Shown here: piece after piece, positions 47,925 to 58,748 of the stretch | Layout: each line of letters begins with the position of its first letter | Position numbering within the stretch: the first letter of the stretch is position 1 | Origin: Candidatus Pacearchaeota archaeon | GTDB lineage: Archaea > Nanobdellota > Nanobdellia > Pacearchaeales > GW2011-AR1 | Reading direction: 5' to 3' | NCBI GenBank assembly: GCA_964202455.1 | Contig: CAXNIJ010000006.1 | Span: 5,184-69,183, forward strand | Length of the DNA stretch: 64,000 nt | The notes under the pieces: generated by a model | Told to the model about the DNA's origin: nothing | Database searches by the model: none | Seen by the model: only the letters and a program-made list of their open reading frames with translations | Position numbers and translations under genes: made by a program

Positions 47925-50132
47925 TTAAGAGTCTATTCTGGGCTTTTTCATCTTAGCTAAGTTAGGATGCCCCCATGCCGCTATTGCAGCGCATTGTTGT
48001 TTAGTGAGTTGGACTCCTTTTCCTTGCAAGTGATTCCAGATATCTTCTACTTCGAATTTTTCCCTTCTGAGTTGGCGGATTTCTTCTTTGACTAATTCTG
48101 AAAGTGGAGCTAACTTTATATCTTTAACTCTATTAGGTTTGAAAGGAACTGCCTCAATAAGAGAAAGTGTATCTCTTACTGATCGATAATGTGCATTAAT
48201 TGTATCAGAAGTAATCTGTCTATTTTTCAGAATATCTGCTCTTAAATCATCAAAGAATGCATAGAGACGAATGTCTTCTATTGGCTGTCTTATATATTCT
48301 TCAAAATTGCTTGCATGAAAAGCTTTTTCTATTCTTTCTTGTTTTGTCTTAGAAAGAGATGCGACTGCTTCATCTACAAAAAACTCTAGTGCTTTTTGAT
48401 GCATTCTTGGTAAATGATTAAAAATCTTAGGTTTGAGAAAATAATGATATTCTTTTCCCTTAAGTTCTTGATGATCTTCTTTTATTTGCTTTTCAGAAAT
48501 ATTTTTTGGAATTTTAAGACCTCCTTGAGTTTTACAAGCTCTTAGAGCGTTAATTTTTCTTTGCATATTTTTGCCAAAGGTATATTGTAGTGCAATTTCA
48601 TCGTCGGATTTTCCTTCAATAACAAACTCTCCCGCCGTTCTTTCGCTTCTCAATAATGGACGATATGCGCTGCCTAGATGTATTCTAGAAGGTTCAATTG
48701 ATCTAAATTTCTCAACGTTCTTCCAGTATTTATTCAATCTATCGCCAAGTTCTTTCGATAACCATTTTTTAAATTTAGAAGTTTCTTTTTTTAGAAGGTC
48801 TATTTCGGGACATTTGTTAAAATACTCATTGGGAATCATTCTTTCTCTAATTAAATATGGTCTATTAATTCCATAAAAGAGTGTCCAATCAGAATTTAAA
48901 ACTTTTTGCAATGTTTGATCAATAAATGGACTTAATTTTGCTACTTTTACTATATCTAACATCATATTGGAATTTTTATTACTGGTATATTGAAATCTAC
49001 AACTCTCTGATTCAGTATATCCTCCAATCCATTCACTATCTAATAATTTTAAAAGTTCATCGAGCTCAGCCTTTTTAAAATAATCTCTGGAAAATTTATT
49101 AAGAAGTATACTTCCCTGATCATACCATTCCTTTTCTTTGTTTAGTTTTTTCTCTTTAATTTGATTAGATATCTCAATCAAATCAGAATAAAAAAGACGA
49201 AACTGTTTGGGATTACCACAGAAACCTAAATTTCTCTGAATTTCACTTAAAGGTTGTTCACCATTATCATGAAAATAATTTCTTTGACATACTTCTGCTA
49301 TAATGTCATCAAACTTAATATCAACTATATTAAATTTTTCATAATCGCGAGTTTCTAAACTGATTCTAACCCAACCAGATATTGCCTTATTTCTTGATAA
49401 TTTGAGATTTTTCTCTGAAAAATGGAGTAATATTTTATTTATTTCTTCTTCATGTGGCTTAAATACTTCATCTCTAATTCTTTCTTTAATAGCCATATAT
49501 TCACTAATACATTCTTCTTTATCTGTGCATTCTAATCTTATCCTTTCAATAAGTGCTTGACGATCTTTATTTTCTTTAAATCTAAATTCTGCCTCTTCGC
49601 TAAGTTGATGGTAGAGAGGATTCTGAAAAACTTCATTACGAAATATCTCTGAAGACATTAGACTGTTTGAATAATTTAGTTTCATTTCTTCATTTTCCCT
49701 CATACCGTATACATTGGTATAAATCATTCCGCCATCGATCAATAATTGATTCTCCGCCATGTGCGCCAAATCCCCCATTACTTTCTTATTTAGTTGACAT
49801 TCATAATCCAGACCACAATAAGTTAATGGGAAAAAATCCTTGTATTCTTCCCATTTATTTGCAAAAAAATCATGAGTCATTGTTGGTACCACTACGATGC
49901 CAGGATTGGCCTGTCTAACTGCCTCTATTTTCTGAGGATCTCCTTCAAGCGCGATCATTCTGTCTCTTCTAAATCCTCTTCTTTCTAAAAGCTGCATTTC
50001 AAGACCATTAGTTGAAGGAAGAAATAATGCAGTCCCATTCCCAATATTTCTTGGAAGATATTTAAGCGTCGCCTTGTAAATCTCATGTCTCGCTTTTGCC
50101 TTTACAGGGTCAGATTCATATGAGTTACTCAT
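47925..50132 (-). CDS. Island paralog P7 (735 aa), last gene of the 7-gene operon: MTase-like N-module, long middle region, C-terminal HTH-like module
   Basis: ALFLPSTNGLE...MIALEGD...YCGLDYECQL...NVYGMRE. Central FQYTSNKNSNMMLDI. C-terminal EEIRQLRREKFEVEDIWNHLQGKGVQLTKQQCAAIAAW. ATGA overlap with the upstream gene; GGAG before the ATG. Confidence 0.8.
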   Translation of the reverse strand: MSNSYESDPVKAKARHEIYKATLKYLPRNIGNGTALFLPSTNGLEMQLLERRGFRRDRMIALEGDPQKIEAVRQANPGIVVVPTMTHDFFANKWEEYKDFFPLTYCGLDYECQLNKKVMGDLAHMAENQLLIDGGMIYTNVYGMRENEEMKLNYSNSLMSSEIFRNEVFQNPLYHQLSEEAEFRFKENKDRQALIERIRLECTDKEECISEYMAIKERIRDEVFKPHEEEINKILLHFSEKNLKLSRNKAISGWVRISLETRDYEKFNIVDIKFDDIIAEVCQRNYFHDNGEQPLSEIQRNLGFCGNPKQFRLFYSDLIEISNQIKEKKLNKEKEWYDQGSILLNKFSRDYFKKAELDELLKLLDSEWIGGYTESESCRFQYTSNKNSNMMLDIVKVAKLSPFIDQTLQKVLNSDWTLFYGINRPYLIRERMIPNEYFNKCPEIDLLKKETSKFKKWLSKELGDRLNKYWKNVEKFRSIEPSRIHLGSAYRPLLRSERTAGEFVIEGKSDDEIALQYTFGKNMQRKINALRACKTQGGLKIPKNISEKQIKEDHQELKGKEYHYFLKPKIFNHLPRMHQKALEFFVDEAVASLSKTKQERIEKAFHASNFEEYIRQPIEDIRLYAFFDDLRADILKNRQITSDTINAHYRSVRDTLSLIEAVPFKPNRVKDIKLAPLSELVKEEIRQLRREKFEVEDIWNHLQGKGVQLTKQQCAAIAAWGHPNLAKMKKPRIDS

Positions 50133-57123: not shown

Positions 57124-58748
57124 GCAGATACCTCTTGATTTAAAGCGTTTCTTTTTCTTGTTAGATGGGCTTTACGTGCAGCTAATTGCATCTTGGAAAT
57201 TCCATAAGAAGTTATGATTTGCTCATCGCTGGCGCACCCATTTTCAAGAAACTCGATAATTTGCCCCTCTTCTACGTCTGTTGGCTGATAAAGATTTGAG
57301 ACTGTATCTTGTGAAGTTCCATTCTGTCTACTCAATGTTGCTTTGTGCCCTGCAAGTTCAAAAGTGGTTAAGTGATATTTATTGAGAATTTCTGCTTCTT
57401 GTTTACCCCTTGATAAGTCTTCACGAACTTTTTCTCCTAATGATTTTATTTGAATTGTTTCCCTCTCTGCCTGCACGTAATCATTTTCTTTTAAAACTAA
57501 TTCGCTGAATTCTCCTATACGTTGCTCAAATCTATTTCTATCTCCGATGAGGTATATACCGCTATATTTTAAAACTTCTTCTAGTGATGGATGATTTTCT
57601 ATGAGTCTAGAATTGCCTAGAGTCGTGGCAATACCATCCCCTATTCTTAAAACGTCAACTCCCTGACTAATATCTCGAGTTTTATAGCCTTCATGAAAAA
57701 TAAGTTGATTAGGGGCAACCCCATCTAAACCAATTTGAATATGCATGTCTTTGAAAATATCTGGTCGACTATTTAATAAGAGAAAGTCGAAAAACATAGG
57801 ACTTCCATTGTCCGAGACATATCTGCCTTTATGAAATTTACTAATAAAACGAGGTCTTTGTATATGAGCAATTTCTGTAAAAAGATATAATGAATTTCTA
57901 AGTCCGTCATTATTCTTAAATTCTGAAGATAAAATTTGCATTAATCCTGTTCTGAGTAATCCGTCTGCAGTTAATATAAATTCCGCGTGCTCTTTAGGAT
58001 TTTTTGATAGTTCTAAAAAATTATGCGGATAATTAGCTTTAATTGCAAGAGTATCAATAAACTTTCTTGAAGCAAATGCTTCTAATGATTTTAGACTTTC
58101 ATCTATTTTGTCGGCACTTGTAAGATAACGTAGTTCTAGAGAAATCATTTTATCTCTAACATCATCAAGAACGACCCTATCTTCTGTAAACATATTAAAA
58201 TCCATTTGATCGTCAATTCCATTATTTAATTCTTGATTATTTTCTAGAAAACTTCTGACTGTTCCTCCTCCAGTGAAATAAGTTATTGATTTTTGATAAT
58301 GATCTAGTCTAACTTCACTCTCTCGAGAACCGTAGAAATTTGTACCCAATATACAACGAGGACTCGCTCTTCCTTGTTGAAAGAGAGTGCTCACAGTTAG
58401 TGCTTCTTCATCTTTTAACTGAGATTGAAAGTCAAGATTAATTATATCGAATTGCTCTCCAGGTTGATCAAAAAAAGATCTTGCACTTGTAGGATGAAGA
58501 TTGATACCTAAATCTAGACTTTTTATTTTTTTGTATGTATCTGGATTATGTTCTATTCCCCATATTCTGTCTCTACGAATGCCTAATGAGTCATAAACTC
58601 TTGTAATTTCTAACCCTTCATGACCTGGAAGACAAGCTACTTTTAGACTTCTGCGCCTTTTTCCATCTGGAAATTGTTGCAGAATAAACTCGCATAATTT
58701 TGCATGATAGACTTGTTTTGTCTCGAAGTCATAAGTATCTTTTCTCAT
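57120..58748 (-). CDS. Island paralog P1 (542 aa), first gene of the operon
   Basis: MRKDTYDFETKQVY...LKVACLPGHEGLE...IWGIEHN...FDIINLDFQSQ...GTNFYGSRE. GRYVSDNGSPMFFDF. Two C-terminal HTH-like modules (GKQEAEILNKYHLTTFELAGHKATLSR and EGQIIEFLENGCASDEQIITSYGISKMQLAARKAHLTR). TAGGAG 9 nt before the ATG. Confidence 0.8.
   Translation of the reverse strand: MRKDTYDFETKQVYHAKLCEFILQQFPDGKRRRSLKVACLPGHEGLEITRVYDSLGIRRDRIWGIEHNPDTYKKIKSLDLGINLHPTSARSFFDQPGEQFDIINLDFQSQLKDEEALTVSTLFQQGRASPRCILGTNFYGSRESEVRLDHYQKSITYFTGGGTVRSFLENNQELNNGIDDQMDFNMFTEDRVVLDDVRDKMISLELRYLTSADKIDESLKSLEAFASRKFIDTLAIKANYPHNFLELSKNPKEHAEFILTADGLLRTGLMQILSSEFKNNDGLRNSLYLFTEIAHIQRPRFISKFHKGRYVSDNGSPMFFDFLLLNSRPDIFKDMHIQIGLDGVAPNQLIFHEGYKTRDISQGVDVLRIGDGIATTLGNSRLIENHPSLEEVLKYSGIYLIGDRNRFEQRIGEFSELVLKENDYVQAERETIQIKSLGEKVREDLSRGKQEAEILNKYHLTTFELAGHKATLSRQNGTSQDTVSNLYQPTDVEEGQIIEFLENGCASDEQIITSYGISKMQLAARKAHLTRKRNALNQEVSA

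What the first reader, a model, noticed from the sequence alone, without database searches (positions are those of the whole stretch)
47925..58748. Paralog N-terminal module has class I methyltransferase topology but non-canonical SAM and catalytic motifs
All six paralogs share a ~150-aa N-terminal module whose residue pattern follows the Rossmann MTase order.
- Hydrophobic strand plus P-G loop: LKVACLPGHEGLE, LRVACFPGAEQEGE, IHVLHFPGIDMAE, IKVLFFPGIDARE, ALFLPSTNGLE.
- A second strand ending in an acidic residue: I-x-G-[IL]-E-x-[DN].
- A strand followed by L-D-[FY]-x-[GSC]-[PQ]: FDIINLDFQSQ, FDIISLDYKGQ, FDVVSLDYTGPL, YDVVSLDFIGPL, YCGLDYECQ.
The last motif sits where RsmD-type and N6/N4 amino-MTases carry [DNS]-P-P-[FYW] and Trm1 carries D-L-D-P-F-G. 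The canonical GxGxG loop is missing. The module could be a divergent MTase, a SAM/nucleotide-binding regulatory domain or a pseudo-enzyme. I do not recognise it as a named family.
Basis: partly seen in the sequence, partly recalled or inferred. Interest (0 to 1): 0.75.

Follow-up and report, generated by a model that had tools for sequence, protein, structure and literature searches.

The report
Unannotated split methyltransferase-fold family, six paralogs
Six back-to-back genes in what is probably a DPANN archaeon all encode members of a large, so far unnamed protein family; their core has the fold of a SAM-dependent methyltransferase, with altered but strictly conserved active-site motifs, and their substrate is unknown.

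Summary
Window 47925-58748 (minus strand) carries six full-length paralogs, with family-HMM E-values from 3e-36 to 1e-151, plus one unrelated 206-aa gene. All seven are joined by ATGA or TAATG overlaps.

AlphaFold2 models (N-module pLDDT 80; full-length paralog B pLDDT 91, pTM 0.82) match only class I SAM methyltransferases in the PDB. The best full-length match is the RsmD family (2ift, E 9e-5).

The quoted motifs map as follows:
- F-P-G lies right after beta1.
- An invariant Glu ends beta2.
- An invariant Asp followed by Tyr or Phe ends beta4.

- The domain is not a 150-aa module. It looks split: beta1-5, a variable ~170-aa helical insertion, then a conserved Y-x-S-x-x-G-x-P-M-x-x-D hairpin (beta6/beta7).
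- HTH-like modules follow at the C-terminus.

The family is large (1414 clusters at 50% identity), is found in archaeal contexts and is named only 'hypothetical'. It stays below the threshold of every Pfam and NCBIfam model; the nearest is PF20553 at 24 of 27 bits.

All six paralogs keep every conserved residue, so active enzymes are more likely than pseudo-enzymes. SAM binding and substrate are untested. This is a new family within a known superfamily and is of moderate interest.

The parts
57120..58748 (-). Paralog A (542 aa), A/C subfamily. N-core b1-b5 is at nt 58317-58748. The b6/b7 hairpin motif RYVSDNGSPMFFD is at nt 57768-57851.
   Evidence: ORF. Family HMM E 6e-94 over hmm 25-520. Keeps K11, P41-G42, E66, D106-F107, R142-E, Y310, S312, M318 and D321. 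Coordinates checked by translation.
55696..57123 (-). Paralog B (475 aa), the protein modelled at full length. N-core is at nt 56680-57123. The hairpin YEYTSNTGSSMVSDFF is at nt 56092-56175.
   Evidence: AF2 pLDDT 91.2, pTM 0.82. Elements: b1 35-37, b2 65-68, b3 86-88, b4 104-110, b5 132-143, helices 149-314, b6 317-328, b7 334-344, C-terminal helices 423-474. Foldseek best hit 2ift_B, E 8.9e-5. HMM E 1e-110.
53822..55696 (-). Paralog C (624 aa), A/C subfamily, with an extra C-terminal region shared with F. N-core is at nt 55265-55696 and the hairpin at nt 54716-54799.
   Evidence: N-module AF2 model: pLDDT 79.7, pTM 0.75. Foldseek top 50 hits are all SAM MTases; PmtA is best at E 3.3e-5. HMM E 8e-75.
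53205..53825 (-). Unrelated 206-aa gene embedded in the array. It overlaps its neighbours by ATGA on both sides.
   Evidence: Gene call in L002 and translation. Overlaps. A homologue follows the B-like gene in L001. No family hit.
51667..53208 (-). Paralog D (513 aa), D/E subfamily (LD[FY]xGP), with two C-terminal HTH-like repeats. N-core is at nt 52756-53208 and the hairpin at nt 52183-52266.
   Evidence: HMM E 3e-146. Conserved residues kept.
50129..51670 (-). Paralog E (513 aa), D/E subfamily. N-core is at nt 51236-51670 and the hairpin at nt 50663-50746.
   Evidence: HMM E 1e-151. Weak Methyltransf_35 hit, E 0.021, and PmtA hit, E 0.0058. Conserved residues kept.
47925..50132 (-). Paralog F (735 aa), the most divergent (LPST instead of FPG). 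N-core is at nt 49692-50132 and the hairpin at nt 48936-49019.
   Evidence: HMM E 3e-36. Keeps K, P, E, D-Y, R-E, Y, S, M and D, but has G40S.
61692..62756 (+). 354-aa ORF carrying only the family's C-terminal HTH-like module.
   Evidence: Family HMM positions 465-518, E 5e-9. Homologues with 2-3 copies lie at the same place in L001 and L003.
59357..61699 (+). SNF2-type helicase fused to a canonical class I methyltransferase (Methyltransf_11). It is divergently transcribed from the array and syntenic with it in L001 and L003.
   Evidence: Pfam SNF2-rel_dom 4e-29, Helicase_C 1.5e-10, Methyltransf_11 4.8e-8. Synteny.
58887..59348 (+). Short methylpurine-DNA-glycosylase-like gene, first gene of the divergent unit.
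   Evidence: Pfam Pur_DNA_glyco 5e-9, covering only profile positions 1-95 of 181. Conserved next to the array in L001 and L003.

Best explanation
The six genes encode diverged members of one uncharacterised, mostly archaeal protein family. Its catalytic core is a class I (Rossmann-like, seven-strand) SAM-dependent methyltransferase domain most like the small RsmD-type enzymes.

**Domain layout.** The core is discontinuous.
- Residues 1-150 give an N-terminal helix (invariant Lys, conserved Arg) and strands beta1-beta5.
- A poorly conserved helical insertion of about 170 residues follows. It is probably the substrate-recognition part.
- The conserved Y-x-S-x-x-G-x-P-M-x-x-D hairpin then supplies beta6/beta7.
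- A small alpha/beta unit, a conserved linker and one or two HTH-like modules come last.

**Proposed cofactor and substrate contacts.**
- SAM would be held by the F-P-G loop after beta1 and by the invariant Glu at the end of beta2, which contacts the ribose hydroxyls in canonical enzymes.
- The invariant Asp-Tyr/Phe at the end of beta4 takes the place of D/N-P-P-Y/F next to the methyl group.
- The conserved Arg after beta5 and the Tyr/Ser/Asp of the hairpin would help position the substrate.

**Why six copies.** Each paralog keeps all these residues while the insertion diverges. The six are therefore most likely active methyltransferases with different targets, co-expressed from one translationally coupled operon.

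**Likely target.** A nucleic acid, DNA or RNA, is the more likely target. This part is inference.

**Shown:** paralogy, predicted fold, motif positions, conservation and family size.
**Inferred:** SAM binding, catalysis, the hairpin belonging to the same sheet, and the nucleic-acid substrate.
For: **Fold.**
- AF2 N-module model has pLDDT 79.7. The full-length model has pLDDT 91.2 and pTM 0.82 from 114 homologues and no templates.
- Foldseek against the PDB returns only SAM MTases in the top 50 for both models.
- RsmD-family entries 2ift and 2fpo are the best compact matches (TM on target 0.5-0.62, rmsd 3.3-3.9 A).

**Sequence.**
- Methyltransf_35 (PF20553) matches collinearly from residue ~5-17 to ~142-208 in 6 of 10 D/E-type members and in 14 of 90 members overall, best E 2e-5.
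- Scattered weak hits go to CbiT, PmtA, SpeE and RsmD.
- The N-core profile finds RsmD-like 2ift at E 0.0046 and puts the family's LD on the LD of LDPPF.
- hhalign against E. coli RsmD aligns CFPG with CFAGSG, GLE-x-D with LIEMD and FDIISLD with HNIVFVD. The score is 21.9 against 13.4 +/- 2.2 for 100 shuffles, none of which reached it.

**Conservation.**
- K9, E69, D110 and Y327 are invariant.
- P39, G40, R13, R146, S329 and M335 are above 90% in 114 diverse members.
- All six window paralogs keep them.
- Information content is 2.28 bits per column in the N-core against 0.74 in the insertion.

**Nucleic-acid hints.**
- C-terminal HTH-like module: DUF433 hits in 15 of 90 members, plus single GerE and HTH_40 hits.
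- Natural fusions to an HNH nuclease and to a SplB/PA0069-like radical-SAM domain.
- Synteny with a DNA-glycosylase-like gene and an SNF2 helicase-MTase in three loci.
Against: - No sequence model of any methyltransferase family reaches its curated threshold. The best is 24 bits against 27 for PF20553.
- hhalign probability against RsmD is only 2-6%.
- An unrelated AAA+ Walker-B segment (RFC small subunit) scores almost as well as RsmD in the PDB sequence search (E 0.0078 against 0.0046).
- Only one glycine of the G-x-G-x-G loop remains, and the P-P of motif IV is absent. Both elements shape the cofactor and substrate pocket in canonical enzymes.
- Foldseek E-values are moderate (1e-4 to 1e-5) with TM about 0.5.
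The pocket, the sheet order and the packing of the hairpin against beta5 could not be inspected.
- No neighbour is conserved across 59 further loci, so context gives no pathway.
- The two fusions are single cases.
Confidence: 0.55

Rival explanations
1. This is a ligand-sensing regulator. The MTase-fold domain binds SAM, SAH or a related nucleotide without transferring a methyl group, and it controls the C-terminal HTH modules. The six proteins would then be transcription factors or other DNA-binding regulators.
For: - HTH-like C-terminal modules are present, in one or two copies.
- A neighbouring ORF consists of such modules only.
- Motif I is degenerate and the PP of motif IV is lost.
- SAM-contact positions (the loop after beta1, Glu at beta2) are the most conserved, as expected for a binder.
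Against: - Residues beyond those needed to hold SAM are equally invariant: D110-Y/F111 at the catalytic position, R146, Y327, S329 and D338.
- The protein carries a large variable insertion typical of a substrate-recognition element.
- The HTH assignment rests on sub-threshold hits only.
Confidence: 0.17
2. This is an enzyme that uses the MTase fold for other chemistry. Candidates are aminopropyl or aminocarboxypropyl transfer from (dc)SAM, or metal-dependent O-methylation of the COMT/CCoAOMT type. In the latter case the beta4 Asp and the Asn after beta5 would bind a cation.
For: - Foldseek hits include COMT, a putative caffeoyl-CoA O-MTase and TrmR.
- The nearest Pfam family is described as a 'putative O-methyltransferase'.
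- Weak hits go to polyamine aminopropyltransferase over beta3-beta5.
- The pattern LD-x ... [TA]N resembles the COMT-type L-D-H ... D-N metal site. That comparison rests on my own knowledge of COMT and was not tested.
Against: - The second metal-binding Asp of the COMT type is Thr or Ala here.
- The best compact structural and sequence matches are to RsmD, an N-methyltransferase.
- No spermidine-synthase signature (GGGDGG, D-S-x-D-P; from my own knowledge) is present in the alignment.
Confidence: 0.13
3. This is a pseudo-enzyme or purely structural Rossmann-like scaffold that no longer binds SAM, retained for protein or nucleic-acid binding only.
For: - The canonical GxGxG and DPPY motifs are missing.
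- No MTase model passes its threshold.
Against: - The positions that would contact SAM and substrate are invariant or above 90% conserved across 114 sequences sharing only 18-47% identity with paralog B, and in all six paralogs.
- The N-core is the best-conserved part of the protein.
- Decayed enzymes normally lose exactly these residues.
Confidence: 0.08
4. This is not an MTase fold at all, but a nucleotide-binding Rossmann or P-loop-like domain. The AAA+ hit in the PDB sequence search would suggest the latter.
For: The RFC small-subunit Walker-B region matches the N-core profile at E 0.0078-0.1.
Against: - No Walker-A or P-loop motif is present in any member.
- The match covers only beta3-beta5.
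- Neither AF2 model retrieved any AAA+ or NAD-Rossmann protein in the top 50.
- A long beta hairpin follows, as in class I MTases.
Confidence: 0.03

Closest known systems
RsmD / Cons_hypoth95 (PF03602), 16S rRNA m2G966 methyltransferase; structures 2fpo (E. coli YhhF) and 2ift (HI0767)
   Same: - Best compact structural match to the full-length model and best PDB sequence match to the N-core profile.
- Collinear equivalences: a conserved Arg in the N-terminal helix (RVRE against K-x-K-S-R), C-F-[AP]-G after beta1, E-x-D at the end of beta2, and [FV]-[LV]-D at the end of beta4.
   Different: - DPPF is replaced by D-[YF]-x-G-[PQ].
- Only one Gly remains in motif I.
- A ~170-aa helical insertion lies between beta5 and beta6.
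- An extra alpha/beta unit and HTH modules are present.
- Length is 450-735 aa against ~200 aa.
- The Pfam model does not recognise the family (1 of 90 members at E 0.021).
Methyltransf_35 (PF20553, 'putative O-methyltransferase')
   Same: It is the only Pfam family hit recurrently. The hits are collinear from the very N-terminus through beta5, or a little beyond it (protein residues ~5-200, profile positions 8-186 and up to 214 of 309).
   Different: - Every hit is below the gathering score (best 24.0 against 27 bits).
- The second half of the profile is not matched.
- I found no literature on this family, so its function gives no guidance.
Trm1 (tRNA m2,2G26 methyltransferase), motif D-[IL]-D-P-[FY]-G
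   Same: - Class I fold with a large extra domain; it appears in the Foldseek list (3axs, rank 18).
   Different: - The Pro is missing and the register differs.
- TM is only 0.28-0.33 with rmsd 12.9 A.
- No Trm1 sequence model hit.
COMT/CCoAOMT-type cation-dependent O-methyltransferases (COMT, 3ntv, TrmR 8k1f)
   Same: - Repeated Foldseek hits.
- An Asp at the end of beta4 and an Asn after beta5.
   Different: - The full metal triad is not present.
- No Methyltransf_3 or Methyltransf_24 hit.

Membership tests
Class I SAM-dependent methyltransferase superfamily (fold level) | Alternating beta/alpha Rossmann-like core (beta1-beta5) followed by an antiparallel beta6/beta7 hairpin | tested here: met
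   AF2 secondary structure. The 50 best PDB matches of both models are all class I MTases.
Class I SAM-dependent methyltransferase superfamily (fold level) | Acidic residue at the C-terminal end of beta2 (ribose contact) | tested here: met
   Glu (E69 in B) is invariant in 114 of 114 members and lies directly after beta2 (65-68).
Class I SAM-dependent methyltransferase superfamily (fold level) | Glycine-rich loop (G-x-G-x-G or variant) after beta1 | tested here: inconclusive
   The loop is F-P-G-x(2-7)-[AG]-x-E, with only one near-invariant Gly (112 of 114). hhalign aligns it to the CFAGSG of RsmD.
Class I SAM-dependent methyltransferase superfamily (fold level) | Binding of SAM/SAH and methyl transfer | not testable with these tools
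   No ligand-aware prediction and no coordinates. This needs biochemistry or co-folding.
RsmD / Cons_hypoth95 (PF03602) | Score above the Pfam/NCBIfam cut-off | tested here: not met
   PF03602 hit 1 of 90 members at E 0.021. PRK10909 hit 1 of 90 at E 0.034. None of the six window proteins hit either model.
RsmD / Cons_hypoth95 (PF03602) | D-P-P-[FY] at the end of beta4 | tested here: not met
   The family has D-[YF]-x-G-[PQ] and no P-P.
Methyltransf_35 (PF20553) | Score at or above the gathering threshold (27 bits) over the profile | tested here: not met
   The best member scores 24.0 bits and window paralog E scores 14.6 bits. Only profile positions ~8-215 of 309 are matched.
N6/N4 amino-methyltransferases of DNA (N6_N4_Mtase, N6_Mtase) | [DNS]-P-P-[YFW] catalytic motif and a model hit | tested here: not met
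   No such motif and no Pfam hit in the six paralogs or in 90 members.
Known anti-phage defence systems (PADLOC) | Match of the paralogs to any defence-system model | tested here: not met
   No hit for the six paralogs, the 206-aa ORF or the 354-aa ORF. Only the SNF2 helicase gives generic ZorD/DpdE/DrmD helicase matches.

The most novel reading that the evidence does not exclude
The family is a previously unrecognised enzyme class, found in every identifiable archaeal context seen here, with its own catalytic constellation: Lys/Arg on helix 0, Glu at beta2, Asp-Tyr at beta4, Arg after beta5, and Tyr/Ser/Asp on the beta6/7 hairpin. It would carry out a nucleic-acid or chromatin modification not made by any known methyltransferase family. 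The hypervariable helical insertion would act as an exchangeable target-recognition domain. Tandem arrays such as this six-gene operon would then be a diversified modification toolkit working with the adjacent SNF2 helicase-MTase and glycosylase-like genes.
Probability: 0.12. Interest if true: 0.75.

Novelty: new variant of a known kind. Interest (0 to 1): 0.5.

Why it matters
DPANN and related small-genome archaea keep few genes, yet this family is widespread: 1414 clusters at 50% identity, usually one copy per locus and up to six here. No database annotates it.

Recognising it as an RsmD-like, probably active SAM enzyme with an unusual motif IV and a split core gives a concrete, testable function to a sizeable block of archaeal 'dark matter'. 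It also adds a new motif variant (D-[YF]-x-G-[PQ] in place of D/N-P-P-Y/F) to the repertoire of class I methyltransferases.

The practical value is moderate. This is a new family in a very well known superfamily, and the substrate is still unknown.

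Tried and rejected
1. Pfam, NCBIfam, PHROGs and PADLOC on the six proteins gave nothing significant.

2. The word-indexed homologue search returned only 4 and then 16 hits and made the family look rare. The exhaustive HMMER search showed that impression was wrong.

3. PDB sequence searches with the full-length profiles A5 and A7 gave nothing useful. 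Only the N-core profile gave a borderline RsmD hit, and an equally weak RFC hit came with it.

4. Foldseek against viral structures returned only generic MTases and capping enzymes.

5. A mobile-element or viral origin found no support. There was no relative in IMG/VR contigs, phage records or plasmid records.

6. A guilt-by-association search over 59 further loci found no conserved neighbour.

7. Literature searches for Methyltransf_35, PF20553 and DPANN paralog arrays found nothing relevant.

8. I used the last homologue search to build an RsmD profile. It returned only enterobacterial sequences at least 82% identical, so no deep profile-profile test was possible. I fell back on single-sequence hhalign plus a shuffle control.

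10. A K-D-K-E-like 2'-O-methyltransferase reading (K9, D110, R146, then the hairpin) was considered. It was not pursued because Arg replaces the second Lys and no FtsJ-type hit appeared near the top of the PDB searches.

Full report
**What is there**

The minus strand of 47925-58748 holds seven consecutive genes. They are A (57120-58748, 542 aa), B (55696-57123, 475 aa), C (53822-55696, 624 aa), a 206-aa gene (53205-53825), D (51667-53208, 513 aa), E (50129-51670, 513 aa) and F (47925-50132, 735 aa). Each junction is an ATGA or TAATG overlap, so the seven form one translationally coupled unit.

The six large proteins are homologous over their full length, with pairwise identity of 16-32% to A. 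A family HMM built later scores them at E 3e-36 to 1e-151. The 206-aa gene is unrelated.

**Database status**

- Pfam, NCBIfam, PHROGs and PADLOC give no significant hit for any of the six. There are only weak MTase hints: Methyltransf_35 at E 0.021, PmtA at 0.0058 and an aminopropyltransferase at 0.017.
- The word-indexed protein search found 4 relatives. An exhaustive HMMER search of 1.84 billion representatives with the N-module profile found 1414 clusters at E <= 1e-3, 727 at <= 1e-10 and 254 at <= 1e-30.
- Most of these proteins are 430-560 aa, with the module at the N-terminus.
- Where a source gives a name, it is 'hypothetical protein', for example from a Nanoarchaeota MAG. The window's own proteins are unnamed singletons.

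**Fold**

- AlphaFold2 on the first 165 residues of C, with 8 sequences, gave pLDDT 79.7 and pTM 0.75. The model shows five strands alternating with helices.
- Full-length B, with 114 homologues, gave pLDDT 91.2 and pTM 0.82. Its elements are helix 7-23, b1 35-37, b2 65-68, b3 86-88, b4 104-110, b5 132-143, a helical region 149-314, a long hairpin b6 317-328 / b7 334-344, a small alpha/beta unit to 393, a low-confidence linker, and three C-terminal helices 423-474.
- Foldseek against the PDB returned only class I SAM methyltransferases among the top 50 for both models. For the N-module these were PmtA (3.3e-5), TrmR, RlmKL, PRMT5, COMT and RsmD.
- For full-length B, RsmD-family 2ift_B was first (E 8.9e-5, TM on target 0.62, rmsd 3.3 A over 143 columns), followed by 2fpo, CmoM, a caffeoyl-CoA O-MTase and others.
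- The viral structure library gave only generic MTases.

**Motif mapping and conservation**

In 114 diverse members sharing 18-47% identity with B, these residues are invariant (B numbering):
- K9 in the N-terminal helix
- E69, directly after b2
- D110, the last residue of b4
- Y327 in b6

These are conserved at or above 90%: Y4, R13, V35, C37, P39, G40 (directly after b1), E50, Y55, D56, I60, R62, N64, G67, G84, I85, D105, L109, R146 (after b5), S329 and M335. D338 is 81% conserved and Y/F111 is 99% conserved.

All six window paralogs keep K, P, E, D-[FY], R-[ED], Y, S, M and D. F alone has Ser for G40.

The N-core is the most conserved region (2.28 bits per column, 30% mean identity among the six). 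The helical insertion is the least conserved (0.74 bits, 12%).

**Corrections to the finding**

1. The MTase domain is not a self-contained 150-aa module. The central Y-x-S-x-x-G-x-P-M-x-x-D motif forms the hairpin that, in class I MTases, completes the sheet. This makes the core a split domain with a ~170-aa insertion. That the hairpin packs onto b5 is inferred from topology, conservation and the high pTM. I could not inspect coordinates.
2. Motif I is reduced, not absent. C-F-P-G aligns with the C-F-A-G-S-G of RsmD.

**Sequence-level relationship**

- Scanning 90 members individually, Methyltransf_35 (PF20553) is hit by 14, with best E 2e-5.
- In D/E-type members the match is collinear, from residue ~5-17 to ~142-208 against profile positions 8-214 of 309. 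It is always below the 27-bit cut-off, with a best score of 24.0.
- NCBIfam gives scattered weak hits to CbiT, PmtA, SpeE, RsmD and RlmI.
- An N-core profile of 40 sequences finds RsmD-like 2ift at E 0.0046 and aligns FDvisLD with FDVVFLDPPF. An RFC small-subunit Walker-B segment scores almost as well (E 0.0078), so this evidence alone is borderline.
- hhalign against E. coli RsmD gives low probability (2-6%) but a consistent alignment of the N-terminal helix and motifs I, II and IV. The score is 21.9 against 13.4 +/- 2.2 for 100 shuffled RsmD sequences, with none reaching it.
- The family is therefore a distant relative of the RsmD and PF20553 kind, not a member of either.

**Distribution and context**

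*Domain of life*
- The window's TrpRS is of the archaeal/eukaryal type (P. horikoshii 3jxe at 2e-110, against bacterial 5e-12).
- The syntenic locus L003 is labelled Candidatus Woesearchaeota and encodes what I read by eye as an archaeal/eukaryal-type EF-1alpha (sequence printed; no search was run on it).
- Other family loci carry TBP, RadA and ribosomal P0/P1.
- The window's GroEL is of bacterial type.
- L001 carries a genuine SigA-like sigma factor beside the same cluster. This is unexplained.

*Copy number and spread*
- Across 70 loci, most have a single family gene.
- Arrays occur in the window (6 copies), a Tara marine contig (4), L030-32 (3 or more), L001 (3), L003 (2) and L062 (2).
- By best BLAST match, the 151 fetched representatives split roughly into B-like (48), D/E-like (66) and A/C-like (36) groups. 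The array therefore combines old subfamilies rather than recent copies.
- No relative was found in viral contigs, phage records or plasmid records.

*Neighbours and fusions*
- No neighbour is conserved across loci.
- Only in this lineage (window, L001, L003) does the array sit beside a short MPG-like glycosylase gene, an SNF2 helicase fused to a canonical Methyltransf_11 domain, and an ORF made of the family's C-terminal module.
- The C-terminal module gives sub-threshold DUF433, GerE and HTH_40 hits.
- Two natural fusions exist. One is to a SplB/PA0069-like radical-SAM domain and is seen in two independent assemblies. The other is to an HNH nuclease domain.

**Interpretation**

The best-supported reading is a family of active SAM-dependent methyltransferases. 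The core is RsmD-like, motif IV is non-canonical (D-[YF]-x-G-[PQ]), the variable helical insertion recognises the substrate, and HTH-like modules form the tail. The six paralogs would be isoenzymes with different targets.

My confidence differs by step:
- The domain has the class I MTase fold: about 0.9.
- The proteins are active SAM-dependent transferases: about 0.55.
- The target is a nucleic acid: about 0.35.

The rivals are a SAM-sensing regulator (0.17), a different SAM-dependent or metal-dependent chemistry (0.13), a pseudo-enzyme (0.08) and a non-MTase nucleotide-binding fold (0.03). The strict conservation of catalytic-position residues in all paralogs is the main argument against the pseudo-enzyme reading. 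Nothing computed here separates an enzyme from a sensor decisively.

**Novelty and score**

This is a new, sizeable, unannotated family within a very well known superfamily, with an unusual motif variant and a split core. I rate it a new variant of a known kind, with interest 0.5.

Noticed in passing
window 61692-62756 (+); L001 1772-2848; L003 4374-5516: An ORF downstream of the SNF2-MTase gene consists of one to three copies of the paralog family's C-terminal HTH-like module and nothing else recognisable. It has no PDB sequence hit.
   Followed up: partly
window 58887-61699 (+): A short MPG-like glycosylase gene (only the first half of the Pfam profile) is followed by an SNF2 helicase fused to a canonical Methyltransf_11 domain. 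This pair is syntenic with the paralog array in three loci (window, L001, L003).
   Followed up: partly
window 53205-53825 (-); L001 10590-10943: A conserved 206-aa gene sits inside the array, coupled by ATGA overlaps on both sides, with no family hit. Its G-V-S-H ... E ... G-A-Q-H pattern recalls TraB/Tiki-type proteins. That resemblance is from memory only and was not tested.
   Followed up: no
L001 42-1625 (-): A bona fide primary sigma factor (SigA/RpoD-like, E 6e-38 to PDB sigma factors) lies next to the same gene cluster. Yet the window has an archaeal-type TrpRS and L003, labelled Woesearchaeota, encodes what looks by eye like an archaeal/eukaryal-type EF-1alpha. Either a bacterium acquired the cluster or an archaeon carries a sigma factor.
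   Followed up: partly
window 43092-44720 (-) and 5796-6920 (+): One contig shows mixed ancestry: a bacterial-type GroEL (with GroES in L002) alongside an archaeal/eukaryal-type TrpRS. An AddA-like UvrD/PD-(D/E)XK helicase-nuclease is also present at 19037-22096.
   Followed up: partly
P0038 (L072 3891-6899, L073 1102-4110); P0017 (L074 505-2685): Natural fusions of the family protein exist. One is to a SplB/PA0069-like radical-SAM domain, seen in two independent assemblies. The other is to an HNH nuclease domain (IscB/YajD-like).
   Followed up: partly
L009 7553-10691: A family gene is split by insertion of a DDE transposase. The N-terminal part and the C-terminal 146-aa part lie on either side, within an IS-rich stretch.
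   Followed up: no
paralog B residues 400-417 (window about 55873-55926); consensus R-x-F-L-G-[NS]-S-x-K-P-x-L-T-K: A linear motif is conserved across the family, most clearly in D/E-type members. It lies in a linker that AlphaFold models with pLDDT below 50. It could be a docking peptide or a flexible active-site element.
   Followed up: no
window 22766-23623 (-): A retroviral-type integrase (rve) ORF, probably an IS element.
   Followed up: no
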